The position numbers were made by a program, and so were the translations under genes. This document shows, in pieces, positions 3 to 8,800 of a stretch of 64,000 bases of DNA; the stretch's first letter is position 1, and each line of letters starts with the position of its first letter. The DNA is from Trypanosoma brucei (taxonomy: Eukaryota). The notes under the pieces were generated by a model. It was not told where the DNA came from. It made no database searches and saw only the letters and a list, made by a program, of their open reading frames with translations. Location: contig CM000208.1 in assembly GCA_000002445.1 (NCBI GenBank), positions 1,344,001 to 1,408,000 of the forward strand. Reading direction: 5' to 3'.

Positions 3-2057
3 GTGTTCAACGGTTTCGAAGCTCACATTTCCAGAAATGTCGATTTCTACAGGGGAATTTTCATGTCTCCCTCAGCGCACAAGGAGGCGCTGCTACCACC
101 GTATGAGAAGGAAGTTACTCCGTTGCAGAGGATGATGTTCCTCAGATGTCTTCGACCCGATAAGTTAATGGAAGCTGTGCAAGATTTCGTCAGCAGTGAG
201 CTAGGAGAACGCTTCATCCGCCCACCGCCGTTTGACTTATTTACCTCCTTCAAGGAATCCAGTCCAACAGCGCCGCTTATTTTCATACTCTCTCAGGGAG
301 CGGATCCATTCGAGGACTGGAAGAAGTTTGCGGAGCAAAACAACATGGGTAAAAAATTGTCGGATATTTCACTAGGTCAAGGCCAAGGTCCGAGAGCCGA
401 GCGGATGCTGCAAGAGGGCATGGAGAATGGTACATGGGTACTCTTGCAGAACTGCCACCTGGCAACATCATGGATGCCAACACTTGAACGGTTAGTAGAG
501 GGAATGAAGTACGGTATTCATTCCTCTTTCCGACTGTGGCTTACCTCTATGCCTAGTCCTCACTTCCCTGCAACGGTTCTGCAGAACGGTGTGAAGATAA
601 CCAATGAACCACCTAAGGGAATGCGAGCTAATGTCACACGTTCTGTGTTGAGTTACCGTCCGGATTACCTGGACACTTGCAAGAAGTCAACAGAGTTTAA
701 AAAGCTTTTCTTCGCCATGTCGTTCTTCCACGCCCTTATCCAGGAGCGTAGGAAGTTTGGTCCGCTAGGGTGGAATATTCCGTACGAGTACACTTCCGGA
801 GATTTGGGTTGTTGTGTGGCGCAGATTCGAATGTTCCTTGACAAGTACGAAGAAATTCCCTACAAGGTCATCAAGGAATTGAGTGGAAACATTCACTATG
901 GCGGCCGTGTTACGGACGATTGGGATCGTCGAACACTGAATACATTGTTGGAGGTGTTTGTACATCCTGATGTGATGAAGGATGGCTACAAATTTTCTCC
1001 GTCGGGCACCTACAATTCTATACCTGTTGGATCACAGAAGAGCTATCTAGATTACATTGAGACCTGGCCGATGAATACAAACCCTGAAATATTTGGCTTG
1101 CACGAAAATGCAGACATCACGTGCGCACGTAATGAAACATTTGAGACATTAGAGGCAATTCTCTCTCTGCAGGGCGAGGCTGCGCCGAAGAGTGCCTCAG
1201 GTCAGTCTCCGGATGAGGTGGTTGTGGAGTTAGCTAAACTTATTAGAAAGCGCGTAAGTGAGCCATTTAATATTCCCGATTTTCAGAAGAAGTATCCAAC
1301 AATGTATGAAGATTCTATGAACACTGTGTTGGTGCAGGAGGCCATTCGATTCAATCGTCTCACCGCTGTTGTGCGCGAAACGCTGGAAGCCCTTCCCCTT
1401 GCTATTAAAGGTGAGGTGCTGATGAGCCGGGAACTGGAGGAGGCATACCGCTGTCTCTACAATAATCAAGTGCCTGCACAATGGGCTGAACGTGCTTATC
1501 CGAGTCTCAAACCACTTGGAGCTTGGGTGGATGACTTGGTTATGCGTTTGGAGATGATTTCATCATGGTACGAAGAGGGTCATCCGTCTGTTTACTGGAT
1601 TTCAGGATTTTACTTTCCTCAAGCATTCCTTACAGGCATTTTACAGAATTTTGCGCGTAAGATGCAAATATCCATTGATACGGTCAGTTACGGCTTCGAG
1701 TGGATGAAAGATGACCCTGAGAAAATCACTAGCCATCCAAAAACTGGTTGCTATGTCCACGGTGTTTTTATTGAAGGTGCAAGGATTGACCGCAGCAGCC
1801 TCAAACTTGTGGAGTCGATGCCGAAGGTGCTGTTCGAACAGGCTCCTTTATTGTGGTTACAACCCATCATAAACAGAGAGAAGCCAACTGATAGTGTTTA
1901 CATTTGCCCACTTTACAAAACCCTGCGTCGTGCAGGTACGCTAAGCACCACTGGGCACTCCACAAACTATGTTCTCACTGTCGAGATACCTACGTCCGTT
2001 TGTCCCAAACACTGGGTGAAGCGCGGCGTTGCTATGGTTTGCGCGTTGAATACGTAA
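3..2057 (+). CDS. Dynein heavy chain, C-terminal portion (5'-truncated by the window edge)
   Basis: 684-aa ORF open to the window start. It carries the dynein heavy chain AAA6 / C-terminal domain signatures (LLQNCHLATSWMPTLERL, FRLWLTSMPSPHFPATVLQNGVKITNEPPKGMRANV, WISGFYFPQAFLTGILQNFARK) that are conserved in axonemal and cytoplasmic DHCs. Confidence 0.85.
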   Translation: MFNGFEAHISRNVDFYRGIFMSPSAHKEALLPPYEKEVTPLQRMMFLRCLRPDKLMEAVQDFVSSELGERFIRPPPFDLFTSFKESSPTAPLIFILSQGADPFEDWKKFAEQNNMGKKLSDISLGQGQGPRAERMLQEGMENGTWVLLQNCHLATSWMPTLERLVEGMKYGIHSSFRLWLTSMPSPHFPATVLQNGVKITNEPPKGMRANVTRSVLSYRPDYLDTCKKSTEFKKLFFAMSFFHALIQERRKFGPLGWNIPYEYTSGDLGCCVAQIRMFLDKYEEIPYKVIKELSGNIHYGGRVTDDWDRRTLNTLLEVFVHPDVMKDGYKFSPSGTYNSIPVGSQKSYLDYIETWPMNTNPEIFGLHENADITCARNETFETLEAILSLQGEAAPKSASGQSPDEVVVELAKLIRKRVSEPFNIPDFQKKYPTMYEDSMNTVLVQEAIRFNRLTAVVRETLEALPLAIKGEVLMSRELEEAYRCLYNNQVPAQWAERAYPSLKPLGAWVDDLVMRLEMISSWYEEGHPSVYWISGFYFPQAFLTGILQNFARKMQISIDTVSYGFEWMKDDPEKITSHPKTGCYVHGVFIEGARIDRSSLKLVESMPKVLFEQAPLLWLQPIINREKPTDSVYICPLYKTLRRAGTLSTTGHSTNYVLTVEIPTSVCPKHWVKRGVAMVCALNT

Positions 2058-3451
2058 AAACATTCGTCGAAACGCCATGTACCTGAGAGGAGGTCATTAT
2101 TTCCTGTTTTTGTTGTGTGTCTGTGTAAACCTGTTTATGTGTTTAGTTGTCTTTTTTGTTGTTGGTTGACTTGAACATTTAGATGCAGGACAGTTCCGTC
2201 TACTTATTTTTCTTACCCACCTCCCCTTTTTTATCTTTTTTTCTCCTTCGTTAACTTTTCAAACCCACTTTATGTACACAGTATTCTATAGAGAAATAAG
2301 GGGGGGGAAGAGACCGTTTTTCTTTGATGACTCGGGACTTTCCAGTGGGTGGATGTACACGTTCGATACGCCATGAGTATGTATTTCTCTACACCCATAT
2401 ACATCTCGTACTAACTTTCTTTTATTTCTGAACCTCGCACTTCAAGACTCGTACTTGTATTTTCCCCGTTCACCATATTTCATTTCCTCTCTTCCTCCAT
2501 CTTTTTGTTCCTTCGGATAATATACGTTACATATAGCGTCCTTATATTCAGCAAGGGGGGAAAATGACAGAAACAGCAACAGTTCGATGATTTGGGTGGC
2601 AATTCGACTACCTCATTGCGACCTATGGTGAGGTTATTGTTTTTTTTGTACGTGTGGGAGGGGAATTCGCTACTACTTTCTGTGGGGGGATTGACTCGCT
2701 GCAATTTCCTCTTGTGAACATATGAGTCGCGTGTCTTGCGTTACCATGATCGGACAGAGTGATGGTGAAGGGCATATGCTTTTGTTATGCAATATGTGTG
2801 CTGGTGAAGTAATTATTCCGTGTGTGTGTTTGTGTGTGATCTACCTTCTCATTGGTATCATATATGTGATGCTGTGGTGTGTAACGTGCTCGAGTGGATG
2901 TATGAATAAAATGAGACTACGACAGAATATTTCATTTCTTCGTTTTCTAATGCTCTTGTCCTACACAACTCCTCAATGTAGTCAAGTGACAAATCTATTA
3001 ATGTGTCCCCACCTGTTGTTTCCGATCCTTACGGCCATTTCCCGTCAACAACACGCGCTGCATGTAAATATGCAGAGATTCGTACAACTCTGTAGTTTGT
3101 GGAATAGCGCAAGTTGTTTTAGAGGTTGAATGAACCCGGGTTGAGTTGCATAGAGCTACGATTACAATGGAGGTACAAGCTATCAACACGGATTGAAGGA
3201 GAGGTATAACTAATGCAGGTATACGAGTATTTAAATAGTGTATATTACCTCTTCCCTTTGAGGGCAAATATATTCTTAACTTTATAACAAAGAATAGGTG
3301 TACAACGTTAATGTATACAATACTTCTGGTTTGCTGTTTTAAAAATTATTGTCTTTGTTCCTTTTTCGTACAAATTACTGTTACGACTTCACTTCCCCTT
3401 CCTGTTGGTCTTCTTCATTTATGCCTGACCACCGGACAGCGCATCAGTAAC

Positions 3452-3970
3452 ATGACCACATACGTCCCAAAGAGCTCGCGCGATGATGTATACCGCTTCT
3501 TCTTCACGGAGGGCGTTGTTTCCTGCAAGAAGGACCCCCTCGGCACGTGGAAGGGAACTCTTGGTGGCAAGACGTTCAAGCTTCCCACTCTACAGGTAAT
3601 GCAACTGATGCGTTCCCTGAAGAGCCGTGGCCTCATTAAGGAGCAATTCGCCTGGCGCCACTTCTACTGGACTCTAAATGATGAAGGCATCAACTACATG
3701 CGGAAATACCTCTATCTGGGAGCAGATGCTGTGCCGAACACTCACAAGGTGGATCACAAGACCTTTGAACGCGAAGGCGGACGCGGGCGTGGGCGCGGTG
3801 ATGGCCGTGGCCGTGGGCGCGGGTTCGGACGTGGCCGTGGCGAGGGCCGTGGCTTCGGACGTGGACGCGGTGAAGGCCGTGGCCGTGGTTTCCATAGTGA
3901 GCGCGACCAGTACCGCGCCGGTGCTGCTGCCCAAGGCGAGGATGCCGCGCCCGTTGCTGCGGTTGAGTAG
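3452..3970 (+). CDS. RPS10: 40S ribosomal protein S10 (eS10), copy 1, with a C-terminal RG/RGG-repeat tail
   Basis: 172 aa starting MTTYVPKSSRDDVYRFF, with the eS10 (Plectin/S10) domain (DPLG.WKG, NYMRKYL). The supplied ORF begins further upstream, and I moved the start to the first ATG that gives the conserved eS10 N-terminus. It is 100% identical in nucleotide sequence to copy 2. Confidence 0.9.
   Translation: MTTYVPKSSRDDVYRFFFTEGVVSCKKDPLGTWKGTLGGKTFKLPTLQVMQLMRSLKSRGLIKEQFAWRHFYWTLNDEGINYMRKYLYLGADAVPNTHKVDHKTFEREGGRGRGRGDGRGRGRGFGRGRGEGRGFGRGRGEGRGRGFHSERDQYRAGAAAQGEDAAPVAAVE
3776..3892 (+). repeat. GC-rich tandem repeat coding the RG/RGG box of RPS10 (the 30-nt unit FGRGRGEGRG occurs twice, plus RGRG runs)
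   Basis: ggccgtggc / ggacgtgg periodicity is visible in the nucleotide sequence, and the protein reads GGRGRGRGDGRGRGRGFGRGRGEGRGFGRGRGEGRGRGF. The same repeat recurs at 5211..5327 in copy 2. Confidence 0.8.
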
Positions 3971-4187
3971 GAACGGTTTGGGTTACTGATGGCATTGTGT
4001 TTGTGTGGTGTTTATTTTACTAATTTATGCTTAACTGCGTCTCGTCTTGGTCATCTTACGGTGGTCATTGTTGGTCGTTGGTTTCTACAACCACTAAATG
4101 GCTGAGCGGTTATTTTTGTTTAAGGGGGCTGGAGGCGGACTCTATCATTCTTATGATTCTTTTTGTTTTTCCCAAACTAGGTAGACA

Positions 4188-4607
4188 GTGAGTGCTGACG
4201 GGTCCGAAGACTTGTGCGATGATGTGTACCGCTTCTTCAGGGAGGGCGTTGTTTGCTCCGAGAAGGACCCCCTCGGCGCGTGGAAGGGAAGTCTTGGCGA
4301 GAAAACTTTTAAAATTCTCAATGCGCAGTTTACAGAAGTGTTAAAATCGCCAAAGAGTCATGGCCTTGTCAAAGAACAGTCTCCTCGGCACAGCGTGTGG
4401 TGGACGCTGAATGTCGACGGCGTGAACTACATGCGGAAATACCTCTGCTTAGACGGGGATGTGATGCCGCCCCGTGACAAAGTGGATGCGGAGCCACACA
4501 AAAGCGACGCCACAAATGGCAGTTGTGGTGGGCGCGGAGGGGGTGGGAGACGCGGTGGATTCGGTTTTTTTTGGGAGGGGTGGTCCTCCTCCTACAGCAG
4601 AAGATAG
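4188..4607 (+). pseudogene. Degenerate RPS10-like relic between the two intact RPS10 copies (S10 domain retained, no in-frame ATG)
   Basis: Translation gives ..DDVYRFFREGVVCSEKDPLGAWKGSLGEKTFKIL..NYMRKYLCLDGDVMPPRDKVD..GGRGGGGRRGGFGFF, which parallels RPS10 along its whole length including a glycine/arginine tail. The frame opens just after a TAG at 4182..4184. The 'start' in the ORF track is GTG, and the first in-frame ATG is deep inside at the NYMRKYL motif. Confidence 0.45.
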
Positions 4608-4886
4608 GAATGGATTTCCTTCGGTTGAGAAATGAGAACTTTTGGGTTCTTGTGTGACGGTTTGTCCGCAGAGTGACTTGTTAATTTTCATCAATACATA
4701 CACCCCTTAAAGTCTTCCCAGCGTGGAGTAGGCTATGCGCTACGTTACCGTTCTCATTTTGTTTCCTCGAAATATTAAGTCAAATTTATCTAAATTTGTA
4801 TCTTGGTTTAGGGTAGCCGACCACATCTTTGCTATTATCGCTCTATTCCACCTTTTTTTTCTTTTACAACGACAAATAGGCAAACA

Positions 4887-5405
4887 ATGACCACATACGT
4901 CCCAAAGAGCTCGCGCGATGATGTATACCGCTTCTTCTTCACGGAGGGCGTTGTTTCCTGCAAGAAGGACCCCCTCGGCACGTGGAAGGGAACTCTTGGT
5001 GGCAAGACGTTCAAGCTTCCCACTCTACAGGTAATGCAACTGATGCGTTCCCTGAAGAGCCGTGGCCTCATTAAGGAGCAATTCGCCTGGCGCCACTTCT
5101 ACTGGACTCTAAATGATGAAGGCATCAACTACATGCGGAAATACCTCTATCTGGGAGCAGATGCTGTGCCGAACACTCACAAGGTGGATCACAAGACCTT
5201 TGAACGCGAAGGCGGACGCGGGCGTGGGCGCGGTGATGGCCGTGGCCGTGGGCGCGGGTTCGGACGTGGCCGTGGCGAGGGCCGTGGCTTCGGACGTGGA
5301 CGCGGTGAAGGCCGTGGCCGTGGTTTCCATAGTGAGCGCGACCAGTACCGCGCCGGTGCTGCTGCCCAAGGCGAGGATGCCGCGCCCGTTGCTGCGGTTG
5401 AGTAG
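4887..5405 (+). CDS. RPS10: 40S ribosomal protein S10 (eS10), copy 2
   Basis: 172 aa with a coding sequence identical to 3452..3970. The 5' flank differs from copy 1 right up to the ATG, and the 3' flank diverges about 25 nt after the stop codon. Confidence 0.9.
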   Translation: MTTYVPKSSRDDVYRFFFTEGVVSCKKDPLGTWKGTLGGKTFKLPTLQVMQLMRSLKSRGLIKEQFAWRHFYWTLNDEGINYMRKYLYLGADAVPNTHKVDHKTFEREGGRGRGRGDGRGRGRGFGRGRGEGRGFGRGRGEGRGRGFHSERDQYRAGAAAQGEDAAPVAAVE

Positions 5406-5842
5406 GAACGGTTTGGGTTATTCGTTTACCATCTCCATTCATAATTTTTCACACCCGTTTTCTTAAATTTGAAGATGTTTCATTTTATATTTTTAATCCT
5501 ATACTAAGGAGGAAAATTGTGTGCTCTGCTTTACTTTTGTTAGTGTCAAGCAATGTTATTATTAGTTAGCTACTTCTCCTTGCCTGTTTTTCTCGTGTCT
5601 ACCCTTGTTTCAATACTATCGTTGTGGACTTATATCCGCTCAAATTCATAACGTGAGGCTTAGTTCAATACAGAAATAGAACTTTTGCATTTGGGTGTGA
5701 AGTCACAATTGAGGGGAAAGGGGTGTGGTGAGGTGGCAACAAAGTTCAAAGGACAAAAAATCGGAGAAAGAGTAGAAGGGGAAGGTAAGATTTTCTTTTC
5801 TGTGCTGCTTCGTTTTGATCGCCTCTTAATATATTGTTTTCT

Positions 5843-8800
5843 ATGCTTAACACTGTGAAATGGGCTGAGCACTCAGGTGCCGAAGACGAGCCTAACCCAC
5901 CCGTCTACTCCCTCTCCTATCATCCGAGTGGAGAAACGATCGTGGCGGGTTGCGGTGTTCGTGTGGTGGTGTTCGATGCAACCACCGGCGCTGTGCGACT
6001 CTCACTCAAGGGACATACAGACGCGGTCTACACAGTGACGTGTTTCTCAGATGGCAAGTATTTTGCCAGTGGAGGGGCTGACAAGACAGTTATTCTGTGG
6101 ACTATCGATGGAGAGGGTGTATTGAAGTATCAGCACCGAGAGTCCGTACAGGCGCTGGCACACAACCCTGTAACGGGAGGACTTGTTTCAGTTGCAGGTC
6201 GCGATTACGGTACGTGGTCGGCTGAACAAATGAAAGTTGGGAAATCTTCATTACCAGCAAAGGGGCTTTGTTGCGCGTGGTCACGCAATGGACAAACATT
6301 GGCTATTGGTCTCTCTGACGGCAGTATCATTTTCGTACCTTCTCAGGGTGGTGAGAAGGTTACAGTGAAGCGCACTGCACCCGTTTGGGCGGTGGTATTC
6401 TCTCCTATTTCGGAAAGCGGAGCTGACGTCCTCGTCGTGGGGTCTTGTGATCGCCGTCTCTCCTTTTACACCAGCGACGGTAAGCCGGCAAGCAAAGAGA
6501 AGGAAATTTCCTGTGAACCATGCTCGCTCAGCTTTTATGGGGGAGGCAAGTTTTTGCTTGTTGGGGGGAGCAACTGCGAGGTTTCCCTCTTCACAAAGGA
6601 CGGCAACTTGCTTGTGAAAGTAGCCGATGCGGACGATTGCATATGGTCCGTACAGGCCAGCCCAAAGCATCAACAGCTGTGTTGCGGGACAAACAGCGGT
6701 GTTTTGAAGGTGGTGGATATAAATATACCAGTGGTACACAGCATTTTCAATGATCAGTTTGTATTTCGCGACAAAATGTCTGACGCCGTCGTTCACCAAC
6801 TTACGCTTGACAAGCGACTGCGTATTCCATGCAATGGCTACATCATCAAGCTGGCTGTTTATAGGGATCGCGTAGCTGTACAACTGTGTGATAAATTCAT
6901 AGTGTTCGAGTTGTTCTATGACGATGAGCGGAAGATGAAATTTCAGAACGTTGCAATCATCCGTAAACGGGTGAGCTGTGATCACCTTTGTGTTACTTTC
7001 AATGGTCTTGTGATATGCTGTGATCGTCGCCTAACCATGTATGATTTCCAGGGTAATATGCGCCAGGAGTGGACAGTGGAAAGCTCTGTTTGCTGCATCA
7101 AAGTGATTGGGGGAGTTGAAGGGAGGGAATGCCTTCTGCTTGGATTAAAGAACGGTTTGACGCTTCGTATGTTTGTCGATAATCCCTTCCCGACCACGCT
7201 GGCGAAGGTAAATAATTCAGTCAAGGCTCTTGATCTCAGTTGCGACAAGACGAAACTGGCGGTCGTCGATGATAACGGGTTGCTGCAAGCGTTTGATTTG
7301 CGGAACAAGAATGAGGTTCTCTTCATGGCAAATGGTGTTCAAGCGGTGGCGTGGAATTCAGAGTATGACGATATGATTTGCTACACAACTGCGGTAAATA
7401 CATTGAACATAAAGACCGGGGCTCTGCCTCCACATGAGCAGAGATTGCCGGGGTACGTTATTGGATTCAAGGCCAATCGTGTGTTCAATGTTTGTGGTAC
7501 TATTGTAGACAAGATTGATGTACCGCATTCCCAGTCTCTGTATCGGTACATAGAAAAGAGGGATTTTGAATCTGCACACCGCATCGCCCGTCTTGGCGTA
7601 CCCGATGGGGATTGGAAAATGCTTGGCATGCACGCGATGATGCACCTGCAACTCGACGTTGCTCGGAAGGCGTTTATTAACATCCGTGAGGTTAAACTCG
7701 TCGAACTGCTTAACCGCCTGGAGATGCAGCAGCGTCTAAAGGGCTCCAAAGGTGAAGAAGATGATGGACTCCTTATGGGTGATATTTTTGCTTTTCAAGG
7801 AAAGTATCAGGAGGCGTCACGACACTTCTTAAAGGCTGGACATGAAAATAAAGCGATTGATATGTTCTGTGACTTAAAAATGTGGACTGATGCGCAGCGC
7901 GTCTGTAGCAACGAATCTCATTTAAAGGAGTTGATTCGGCAGCAGGCGCGGTGGGCGGAGGATTCGGAGAACTATATTGAGGCTGCGGCGTTGTTTCAAG
8001 CTTGTGGGGACAAATCCAGAGCTATTGCAATGTTGTGTAATGCTGGTGACGCAGATAAGTTGATGGAGATGTGCCGTGCGATGTCCAAGTCTGAGGTGGC
8101 TCTCATTACGGAGTGTGCGAACTACTTTAAGAAGCAAAAGTTAATGCAGCCCGCGATGTACGCTTATGAGAAGGTTGGTGACTATCGCTCACTTATATGT
8201 CTTCATATGGAAATGAAAGAGTGGCGAAAGGCCTTTGCCCTCCTTGATCTTTATCCGCAATACATTCGTGAGGTGTACGTACCATGGGCCAACTGGCTGG
8301 CAGATAATGGGAATTTCACGGCGGCACTTGATGCATACCGTAAAGCCAAGTGGCCCAGGGAAGCTGTGCGCATGATGGAATCTCTTGCAGCCAACAGTGT
8401 GATATGCCGGAGGTTTCAAGAAGCGGCTTTTTATTTCATCCACTTAGCAGGAGAGTACGGAGTGCTAGAGGATGATCAGCAGCTTACCGAAGCAGAGTGG
8501 GCCGTCCGTATGAAGCGTAGCGCTGAGTGCGTCCGCCGCGCAGAAATTTACTACGCTTACCACTTTGTTTACCTACACGTGACCCAGCCTTTCACCTACG
8601 ATGAGGTAACATTGTTCAACGCTTCGAGGTTCGTAATTGCAATGACCAGTAACACCACTGTTCCTCTCAATGTTGGTAGAGGTGAGGTACTCTACACGCT
8701 GGCGCATATTGCTAGTCAATTAGATATGACGCGCACTGCGCGTATGGCCTTTGAGCGGCTGCACAACGTTGTACTGCCCACTAAAGTAATGGAGCAAATA

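What the first reader, a model, noticed from the sequence alone, without database searches (positions are those of the whole stretch)
4188..4607. Degenerate third RPS10-like copy lacking a start codon, wedged between the two intact copies
The segment translates to a recognisable eS10 homologue along its whole length (DDVYRFF, DPLGAWKG, NYMRKYL, Gly/Arg tail) but is highly diverged. Its frame opens right after a TAG and has no ATG until the NYMRKYL motif. Either it is a decaying paralogue that escaped the gene conversion homogenising its neighbours, or it is an expressed, fast-evolving S10-domain gene whose true start lies in a strain-specific variant. Both would be unusual inside an array that is otherwise under strict concerted evolution.
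Basis: partly seen in the sequence, partly recalled or inferred. Interest (0 to 1): 0.55.

Follow-up and report, generated by a model that had tools for sequence, protein, structure and literature searches.

The report
Dead ribosomal protein S10 gene copy
Between the two identical working genes for ribosomal protein S10 of Trypanosoma brucei sits a third copy with no start codon and near-neutral drift, an ordinary duplicated pseudogene that the public records reachable here do not list.

Summary
Window 4188-4607 (+) is an open 139-codon frame with real eS10 similarity (Pfam S10_plectin 51 bits, E 1.6e-13; 52% identity to the neighbouring RPS10). A TAG lies two codons upstream, and the first in-frame ATG is codon 82.

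It is best read as a non-processed pseudogene, the middle unit of a three-unit tandem array.
- GTG sits exactly where the parent has ATG.
- About 100 nt of the Arg-Gly tail is deleted.
- The conserved 3' end (GTTGAG, stop) is now in another frame.
- 11 of 26 highly conserved eS10 positions are changed, including the invariant Trp.
- Substitutions on its lineage fall evenly on codon positions (26/25/20; intact lineage 2/0/10).

The same ATG-less allele type occurs in T. b. gambiense and a T. equiperdum assembly. T. vivax, T. cruzi, T. melophagium and another trypanosomatid have only two copies. No protein database entry matches the frame.

Two nuances: it did not fully escape gene conversion, since 4216-4297 is 8.5% diverged against 42% elsewhere. 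The open frame is only mildly improbable under neutrality (P about 0.04-0.07).

Expression could not be tested, and T. congolense could not be reached. Interest is low: a new member of a known kind.

The parts
3452..3970 (+). Intact RPS10 (eS10) copy 1, 172 aa (Tb927.10.5360 by neighbour order)
   Evidence: S10_plectin 116 bits; CDS 519/519 identical to copy 2. Gene IDs.
3971..4187 (+). Spacer A (copy 1 to relic). Carries a pyrimidine tract at 4157-4173 followed by AG at 4179-4180 and 4183-4184, a putative trans-splice acceptor.
   Evidence: homologous to spacer B (z 4.9, 67% identity, many gaps) and not to the outer flanks; pyrimidine runs and AG positions. The acceptor rule is from PMC6597758.
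4182..4184 (+). In-frame TAG two codons upstream of the former start; it blocks any upstream extension of the frame
4188..4190 (+). GTG at the position homologous to the ATG of the intact copies (start-codon loss)
   Evidence: alignment ACA-TGACC versus ACAGTGAGT. The same GTG is present in L001 and L003.
4188..4607 (+). psi-RPS10: a degenerate eS10-like open frame of 139 codons, ending in TAG at 4605-4607
4219..4344 (+). First AUGs downstream of the putative acceptor (4219, 4222). They are out of frame and open a 41-aa nonsense ORF.
4216..4297 (+). Low-divergence block (7/82 differences from the intact copies, against 42% elsewhere); probable gene-conversion patch
   Evidence: permutation p < 1/300; the block carries all 4 T. 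brucei-specific derived states in that interval.
4425..4446 (+). 22-nt run identical to the intact copies (NYMRKYL); possibly a second micro-conversion patch. It is broken by AAA to AGC in the gambiense-type allele.
4527..4565 (+). Remnant of the Arg-Gly repeat tail (GGRGGGGRRGGFG); about 100 nt of repeats are missing relative to the intact copies
   Evidence: alignment
4608..4648 (+). Former 3' end of the gene. GTT GAG AAA TGA (4624-4635) plus GAACTTTTGGGTT are homologous to GTT GAG TAG GAACGGTTTGGGTT of the intact copies, but lie in frame 1 rather than the frame of the domain. This implies a net frameshift between about 4578 and 4624.
   Evidence: frames (ORF 4474..4635)
4636..4886 (+). Spacer B (relic to copy 2), with pyrimidine tract 4851-4865 and AG 4878-4879
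4887..5405 (+). Intact RPS10 copy 2, 172 aa (Tb927.10.5370)
   Evidence: gene IDs

Best explanation
The segment is a non-processed (duplicative) pseudogene of RPS10/eS10. It is the middle unit of a three-unit tandem array, each unit being a CDS plus a spacer of about 220-250 bp.

Origin (inferred). The array arose by unequal crossing-over from the two-copy array ancestral to trypanosomatids, on the T. brucei branch after its split from T. vivax.

Decay (shown unless marked).
- The middle unit lost its initiation codon (ATG to GTG) and has a stop two codons upstream.
- It lost most of its Arg-Gly tail and suffered a frameshift before the old stop codon.
- It has since drifted almost neutrally.
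- The outer two CDSs are kept identical by gene conversion plus purifying selection.
- Short conversion tracts from the neighbours have occasionally overwritten parts of the relic, most clearly 4216-4297 (inferred from the divergence pattern).

Expression (inferred). The relic lies in a Pol II polycistron and keeps a pyrimidine tract plus AG just upstream. It is therefore probably still transcribed. It is either processed into a short-lived spliced-leader RNA whose first AUGs are out of frame, or carried within the 3' UTR of copy 1. No eS10-like protein is expected from it.
For: Homology and array structure:
- Homology to the intact gene runs from the start-codon position to beyond the stop codon.
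- Spacers A and B are homologous to each other but not to the outer flanks.

Disabling lesions:
- ATG to GTG, with an upstream TAG.
- The conserved 3' end is in a different frame, and about 100 nt of RG repeats are deleted.
- 11 of 26 columns that are at least 85% conserved in 109 eS10 proteins are changed, including invariant W68 to R and Y72 to W. The median for real eS10 is 1.

Relaxed selection:
- Polarised changes per codon position are 26/25/20 on the relic lineage and 2/0/10 on the intact lineage. Omega is 0.62 against 0.077.
- Bootstrap omega is 0.45-0.75, and the interval includes 1 in four of six treatments.
- Inside the young conversion block, 6 of 7 differences are non-synonymous.
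- Between T. brucei subspecies there are 6 non-synonymous codons (7 nt) against 3 synonymous, and the relic is the fastest-diverging segment of 11.4 kb.

Distribution:
- The same ATG-less relic is present in DAL972 and GCA_003543875.
- It is absent from T. vivax, T. cruzi, T. melophagium and an unnamed trypanosomatid, where the two copies are 218-640 bp apart.
- It is nearest to T. brucei RPS10 even outside the conversion blocks, and shares T. brucei-specific and Salivaria-specific states.

No matching protein:
- An exhaustive HMMER search finds only ordinary eS10, at no more than 41% identity.
- The exact sequence is absent from 15 billion proteins.
- The TREU927 protein accessions EAN77953 and EAN77954, and the IDs Tb927.10.5360 and .5370, are consecutive.

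Concerted evolution of the outer copies: three synonymous strain differences are shared by both copies.
Against: - The frame has stayed open for 139 codons, and the first ~112 codons carry only one in-frame 3-nt deletion. The homologous spacers, by contrast, are full of gaps.
- Under strict neutrality the absence of stops has P of about 0.04-0.07.
- The omega point estimates are below 1.
- Together these allow a past period as a translated, relaxed paralogue, or residual constraint.
- No transcript, ribosome-profiling or proteomic data could be consulted, so non-translation is inferred, not shown.
- T. congolense, the closest outgroup, could not be retrieved.
- Only two distinct relic alleles were available.
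Confidence: 0.82

Rival explanations
1. A still-functional, fast-evolving eS10-domain paralogue. It would be translated from the GUG (or another non-AUG codon) or from an ATG present in other strains, and would serve a specialised ribosomal or extraribosomal role.
For: - The open frame of 139 codons is mildly improbable under neutrality (P 0.04-0.07).
- There is no frameshifting indel in the domain.
- Omega point estimates are 0.45-0.75.
- The Pfam domain is still above threshold.
- The pyrimidine tract and AG are retained upstream.
- eS10 paralogues with tissue-specific roles exist in other eukaryotes (PMC11274626).
Against: - No ATG occurs in either of the two alleles found across three assemblies.
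- The first AUGs after the acceptor are out of frame.
- The invariant Trp and 10 other conserved positions are lost.
- The C-terminal end is frameshifted and the RG tail is largely deleted.
- Substitutions are even across codon positions.
- Within-species changes are mostly non-synonymous and hit the NYMRKYL motif.
- There is no orthologue in other trypanosomes and no similar protein anywhere.
Confidence: 0.06
2. The protein-coding capacity is dead, but the DNA is retained because its RNA matters. It could be the element that positions trans-splicing and polyadenylation for copy 1 and gives copy 1 a 3' UTR different from that of copy 2. Alternatively it could be a regulatory non-coding RNA with 8.5%-diverged and 22-nt identical stretches to RPS10 mRNA. 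This is compatible with the pseudogene reading and adds a function to it.
For: - A pyrimidine tract at 4157-4173 with AG at 4179 and 4183 is arranged like that of copy 2.
- In T. brucei the poly(A) site of the upstream gene is set about 100 nt upstream of the active pyrimidine tract (PMC6597758).
- Copies 1 and 2 have unrelated 3' flanks beyond 15 nt.
Against: - Other trypanosomes manage with a spacer of 218-256 bp and no relic.
- The relic is the fastest-evolving segment of the locus between subspecies.
- There is no Rfam match.
- Nothing indicates antisense transcription.
Confidence: 0.1
3. An ancient paralogue that predates the trypanosome radiation, lost in all other lineages and kept only in T. 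brucei.
For: Outside the conversion blocks the divergence from the intact copy is very high, 44% raw.
Against: - It is still nearest to T. brucei RPS10 (0.443 against 0.50-0.525).
- It shares 5 of 11 T. brucei-unique and 6 of 10 Salivaria-specific states outside the blocks.
- It is absent from four other lineages, which would need several independent losses.
- A neutral rate over the time since the T. vivax split is enough to explain the divergence.
Confidence: 0.02

Closest known systems
Non-processed (duplicated) pseudogenes inside tandem gene clusters, such as the psi-alpha and psi-zeta globin genes of vertebrate globin clusters (my own recollection, not checked here; human psi-alpha1 also has an ATG to GTG initiator change)
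   Same: It arose by tandem duplication next to its parent, and its flanking spacer was duplicated with it. It was disabled by initiator loss and a frameshift, drifts near neutrally, and is occasionally patched by gene conversion from its functional neighbours.
   Different: It lies in a trypanosome polycistron, where there is no promoter to lose. Transcription therefore probably continues, and the RNA-processing signals are retained.
T. brucei tandem gene arrays under concerted evolution (Jackson 2007, PMC1855330; T. b. gambiense genome paper, PMC2854126)
   Same: The outer RPS10 copies behave like those arrays. Their CDSs are identical, the conversion tract is confined to the CDS, and strain differences are shared by both copies.
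   Different: The middle unit is not homogenised apart from short patches. The RPS10 array is not mentioned in the main text of the first paper (term search), and the passages returned by the term search of the second do not mention it.
Functional eS10 paralogue pairs (yeast RPS10A/B, Drosophila RpS10a/b; PMC11274626)
   Same: Duplicated genes encoding the S10_plectin domain.
   Different: Those paralogues are intact, nearly identical or tissue-specialised, and translated. This copy has no start codon and has lost invariant residues.
Processed ribosomal-protein pseudogenes of mammals (my own knowledge)
   Same: Dead copies of a ribosomal protein gene.
   Different: Those arise by retrotransposition to unlinked sites and carry poly(A) remnants. 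This one is in situ, with homologous spacers on both sides and no poly(A) tract.

Membership tests
eS10 / Pfam S10_plectin (PF03501) sequence family | Domain match above Pfam's gathering score | tested here: met
   51 bits against a cut-off of 26.9, E 1.6e-13, covering profile positions 12-87 of 93
Functional eS10 ribosomal protein | Complete ORF with an initiation codon | tested here: not met
   GTG replaces ATG, TAG lies two codons upstream, and the first in-frame ATG is codon 82. This holds in all three assemblies that carry the relic.
Functional eS10 ribosomal protein | Conservation of the near-invariant residues of the globular domain (for example the F-A-W-R-H-F-Y-W block) | tested here: not met
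   11 of 26 columns conserved at 85% or more are changed, including W68 (100% conserved) to R, Y72 to W and F66 to S. The median for real eS10 is 1.
Functional eS10 ribosomal protein | C-terminal extension colinear with the parent (Arg-Gly repeats and acidic end) | tested here: not met
   About 100 nt of repeats are deleted, and the conserved end GTTGAG-stop lies in another frame.
Functional eS10 ribosomal protein | Purifying selection (dN/dS well below 1) | tested here: not met
   Omega is 0.45-0.75 on the relic lineage against 0.077 on the intact lineage. Changes per codon position are 26/25/20.
Functional eS10 ribosomal protein | Translated and incorporated into 40S subunits | not testable with these tools
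   No ribosome-profiling, proteomic or cryo-EM density data were accessible.
Non-processed (duplicative) pseudogene | Full-length homology to a neighbouring functional parent, with duplicated flanks and no retrotransposition hallmarks | tested here: met
   homology runs from the start position to past the stop, spacers A and B are homologous (z 4.9), and there is no poly(A) tract.
Non-processed (duplicative) pseudogene | At least one disabling lesion fixed in the population sampled | tested here: met
   Start loss and the tail frameshift are present in the window, L001 and L003. Only two distinct alleles were available.
Non-processed (duplicative) pseudogene | Neutral or near-neutral substitution pattern | tested here: inconclusive
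   The codon-position pattern and within-species ratio (7 non-synonymous against 3 synonymous nucleotide changes) look neutral. However, omega point estimates are below 1, and the open frame has P 0.04-0.07.
Member of the concertedly evolving RPS10 array | Sequence homogenised with the other array members | tested here: not met
   33% nucleotide divergence overall, against 0% between the outer copies. Only 4216-4297 (8.5%) and a 22-nt run look converted.

The most novel reading that the evidence does not exclude
African trypanosomes of the T. brucei group evolved a lineage-specific, rapidly diverging eS10-like protein from a third array member. It was translated for much of its history, and perhaps still is from a non-AUG codon, as a variant 'beak' protein or an extraribosomal factor. 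The open 139-codon frame and the lack of frameshifts in the domain would be the trace of that constraint.
Probability: 0.06. Interest if true: 0.55.

Novelty: new member of a known kind. Interest (0 to 1): 0.2.

Why it matters
Mostly for annotation and bookkeeping.
- The interval between Tb927.10.5360 and .5370 should carry an RPS10 pseudogene.
- In T. b. gambiense it carries instead an antisense 'hypothetical protein, unlikely' model.
- Read mapping or peptide searches against RPS10 should take into account the 82-nt near-identical block.

It is also a small, clean example of birth-and-death alongside concerted evolution in a trypanosome array. The outer copies are homogenised exactly over the CDS, while a dead middle copy is patched only in short tracts.

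Because trypanosome genes have no individual promoters, the relic offers a natural test. It can show what happens to the RNA of a dead gene in a polycistron, and whether it reshapes the 3' UTR of the upstream paralogue.

Tried and rejected
- Protein search with the relic returned only the T. brucei-group RPS10.
- Exhaustive HMMER search and exact look-up found no protein of its own kind.
- T. congolense could not be reached. Its IFT122 protein (P0111) is not on record in the contig collection, and no T. congolense RPS10 was returned.
- A weak tblastn hit in the T. vivax spacer (E 0.56) was checked. It is no better than shuffled sequence, so it was rejected as a relic.
- The T. equiperdum OVI assembly (L002) has one RPS10 and no relic. 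I treat this as probable collapse of the identical repeats, not as evidence of deletion. It cannot be decided here.
- The Logan contig L014 ends at the stop of copy 1 and adds no further allele.
- The Rfam scan of 2000-6000 gave no match.
- The bacterial promoter and terminator scan is irrelevant for a trypanosome and was ignored.
- A single continuous recent conversion tract in the gambiense-type allele, as an explanation for the clustered differences at 4206-4278, was rejected. Relic-specific differences persist between those sites.
- Literature searches for the locus IDs and for an RPS10 pseudogene found nothing specific.
- The supplementary splice-site tables of Siegel et al. 2010 are not held.

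Full report
**Locus.** The window is a Trypanosoma brucei-group chromosome 10 segment. All genes lie on the + strand.
- The 3' end of a dynein heavy chain gene ends at 2057.
- An intact RPS10 gene lies at 3452..3970.
- The finding lies at 4188..4607.
- A second intact RPS10 gene lies at 4887..5405.
- IFT122 begins at about 5843.

Papers give Tb927.10.5350 as this dynein, and Tb927.10.5360 and .5370 as ribosomal protein S10. No identifier was therefore reserved for anything between the two RPS10 genes. The TREU927 protein accessions of the two copies, EAN77953 and EAN77954, are also consecutive.

**Observation.**
- The frame 4188..4607 is open for 139 codons and begins with GTG.
- A TAG lies two codons upstream, at 4182-4184.
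- The first in-frame ATG is codon 82, in NYMRKYL.
- Similarity to eS10 is unambiguous. BLASTP against the neighbouring copy gives 52% identity over 102 residues, E 2e-35.
- Pfam S10_plectin scores 51 bits, E 1.6e-13, above the 26.9-bit threshold. The intact protein scores 116.5 bits.
- The two flanking CDSs are identical at 519 of 519 positions. Identity begins exactly at the ATG and ends 15 nt after the stop.

**Anatomy.** A nucleotide alignment shows that the relic is a full-length derivative of the gene, not a fragment.
- Its GTG sits at the position of the parental ATG (ACA-TGACC against ACAGTGAGT).
- One TTC of a TTCTTCTTC run is deleted in frame.
- About 100 nt of the Arg-Gly repeat region is missing.
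- The conserved end of the gene is still recognisable: GTTGAG-TAG-GAACGGTTTGGGTT in the parent against GTTGAG-AAATGA-GAACTTTTGGGTT at 4624-4648.
- That end lies in frame 1, whereas the domain is in frame 0. There is therefore a net frameshift between about 4578 and 4624, and the TAG at 4605 is a premature stop in a shifted frame.

The spacer before the relic (3971-4187) and the spacer after it (4636-4886) are homologous to each other: z 4.9 against shuffles and 67% identity, with many gaps. Neither resembles the DNA outside the array. The locus is thus a three-unit tandem array whose middle unit has decayed.

Each unit keeps a pyrimidine tract followed by AG a few bases before the start position or former start position.

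**Selection.** Pairwise Nei-Gojobori omega between the relic and the intact copy is 0.32-0.38, with dS of about 0.9.

I polarised the differences with T. cruzi, T. melophagium and an unnamed trypanosomatid as outgroups.
- The relic lineage carries 26, 25 and 20 changes at codon positions 1, 2 and 3. The intact lineage carries 2, 0 and 10.
- Omega is 0.62 for the relic lineage and 0.077 for the intact lineage.
- With T. vivax added and three treatments of ambiguous sites, omega for the relic lineage is 0.45-0.75. The bootstrap interval includes 1 in four of six treatments.

Of 26 alignment columns that are at least 85% conserved in 109 eS10 homologues, the relic differs at 11. These include the invariant Trp68 (to Arg), Tyr72 and Phe66. 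A typical eS10 differs at 1.

**Comparison between T. brucei subspecies.** The relic is present, gapless and without an ATG in T. b. gambiense DAL972 (L003) and in GCA_003543875 (L001). These two share one allele, which differs from the window at 10 of 420 positions. The differences comprise six non-synonymous codons, one of them K to S inside NYMRKYL, and three synonymous changes.

The relic is the fastest-diverging segment of the 11.4 kb compared: 2.38% against 0.79% for non-coding DNA, p about 0.003.

The two intact copies differ between strains only by three synonymous changes that are shared by both copies, plus one copy-specific change. This is the signature of concerted evolution.

**A mosaic.** Divergence from the intact copies is not uniform.
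- Positions 4216-4297 differ at 7 of 82 sites (8.5%), against 41.6% for the rest. The permutation test gives p below 1/300.
- There is also a 22-nt identical run at 4425-4446.
- The low-divergence block carries all four T. brucei-specific derived states found in that interval.
- Six of its seven differences are non-synonymous (read from the alignment).

The simplest reading is a gene-conversion patch copied from an intact neighbour, followed by unconstrained drift. The relic has therefore not wholly escaped conversion.

**Age and distribution.** T. vivax, T. cruzi (two assemblies), T. melophagium and the unnamed trypanosomatid all have dynein, two RPS10 copies and IFT122.
- The two copies are separated by 218 bp in T. 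melophagium and in one T. cruzi assembly, and by about 640 bp in the unnamed trypanosomatid. tblastn finds no third S10-like segment.
- In T. vivax the two copies are 256 bp apart. A weak hit in that spacer is no better than shuffled sequence.

Even outside the conversion blocks, the relic is nearer to T. brucei RPS10 (0.443) than to the others (0.50-0.525). It shares 5 of 11 T. brucei-unique states and 6 of 10 Salivaria-specific states.

The triplication therefore happened on the T. brucei branch after the split from T. vivax. T. congolense could not be retrieved, so the date cannot be narrowed further.

**Is there any protein like it?** No.
- A word-indexed search of 5.8 billion cluster representatives returned only the T. 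brucei-group RPS10.
- An exhaustive HMMER scan of 1.84 billion representatives returned only ordinary eS10 proteins, at 31-42% identity.
- Neither relic allele occurs as an exact sequence among 15 billion proteins.
- The only model annotated in the interval is an antisense 100-aa 'hypothetical protein, unlikely' in DAL972.

**What speaks for residual function.** The frame is open, and the domain has no frameshifting indel.
- Simulated neutral decay of the parental sequence to the observed divergence leaves no in-frame stop in 112 codons in 4-7% of trials.
- This is mildly improbable.
- Together with omega point estimates below 1, it is compatible with an early phase as a translated, relaxed paralogue before the start codon was lost.
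- It does not outweigh the lesions.

**Likely fate of the RNA (inference).** In T. brucei, trans-splicing uses the first AG after a pyrimidine tract. The poly(A) site of the upstream gene is set about 100 nt upstream of the active tract (PMC6597758).
- If the tract at 4157-4173 is active, copy 1 ends near 4050-4060. The relic is then a separate capped RNA whose first AUGs (4219, 4222) open an out-of-frame 41-codon ORF.
- If the tract is skipped, the relic lies inside a copy-1 3' UTR of roughly 780 nt.

Neither case was testable here. Rfam finds no known RNA family in 2000-6000.

**Verdict.** This is an ordinary duplicated pseudogene, psi-RPS10, unannotated in the records I could reach. It has a conversion-patched 5' block. 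The expressed-gene alternative is unsupported but not formally excluded. Interest is low.

Noticed in passing
window 2058-3451; compare L004 3886-7701, L005 3011-6970, L007 2443-6123, L010 2636-3568: Other trypanosomatids carry two genes between the dynein gene and the RPS10 array: a divergent membrane-like protein, and a well-conserved protein of about 200 aa (62-77% identity between T. cruzi, T. melophagium and an unnamed trypanosomatid). Neither has any tblastn trace in the 64-kb T. brucei window. T. vivax keeps only the first. The locus was remodelled in Salivaria.
   Followed up: partly
window 3311-3451 (L003 4425-5084): Public annotation models copy 1 as a 219-aa protein starting at an upstream ATG (3311; CBH15569, EAN77953, Q38B67). 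The pyrimidine tract and AG acceptor (3392-3439) lie downstream of that ATG, and copy 2 is modelled at 172 aa. The N-terminal extension is therefore probably an annotation artefact.
   Followed up: partly
window 4369-4671 minus strand (L003 5483-5785): T. b. gambiense DAL972 annotates an antisense 100-aa 'hypothetical protein, unlikely' (CBH15570) across the relic. The same frame is not open in the window. It looks like a chance ORF on the antisense strand of GC-rich repeat remnants.
   Followed up: partly
L002 (GCA_001457755.2, T. equiperdum OVI) 4606-6957: This assembly has a single RPS10 copy joining the upstream flank of copy 1 to the downstream flank of copy 2, with no relic, at 99.9% identity to the window. 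It is probably a collapse of the identical 519-bp repeats in a short-read assembly, though a real unequal-crossover deletion is possible.
   Followed up: no
window 4206, 4210, 4226, 4278: Four of the ten between-strain differences in the relic cluster within 73 nt, and at all four the gambiense-type allele has the state of the intact copies. This suggests micro-conversion patches or a local mutation burst. Half of the ten changes are at CpG. It would account for the excess divergence of the relic (2.38% against 0.79%), but is unresolved.
   Followed up: partly
window 3452-3970 and 4887-5405 versus L001/L003: Three synonymous differences between strains (CDS positions 57, 303, 471) are present in both RPS10 copies of each genome. 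One further difference (position 18) is in copy 1 only. This is direct evidence of concerted evolution within the T. brucei group, with the conversion tract bounded by the ATG and by stop+15 nt.
   Followed up: yes
window 2722-3129: A 135-aa ORF annotated as a gene in DAL972 (L003 3836-4243) has no Pfam hit on record. It lies in the gene-poor interval left by the missing genes and is probably not a real gene.
   Followed up: no
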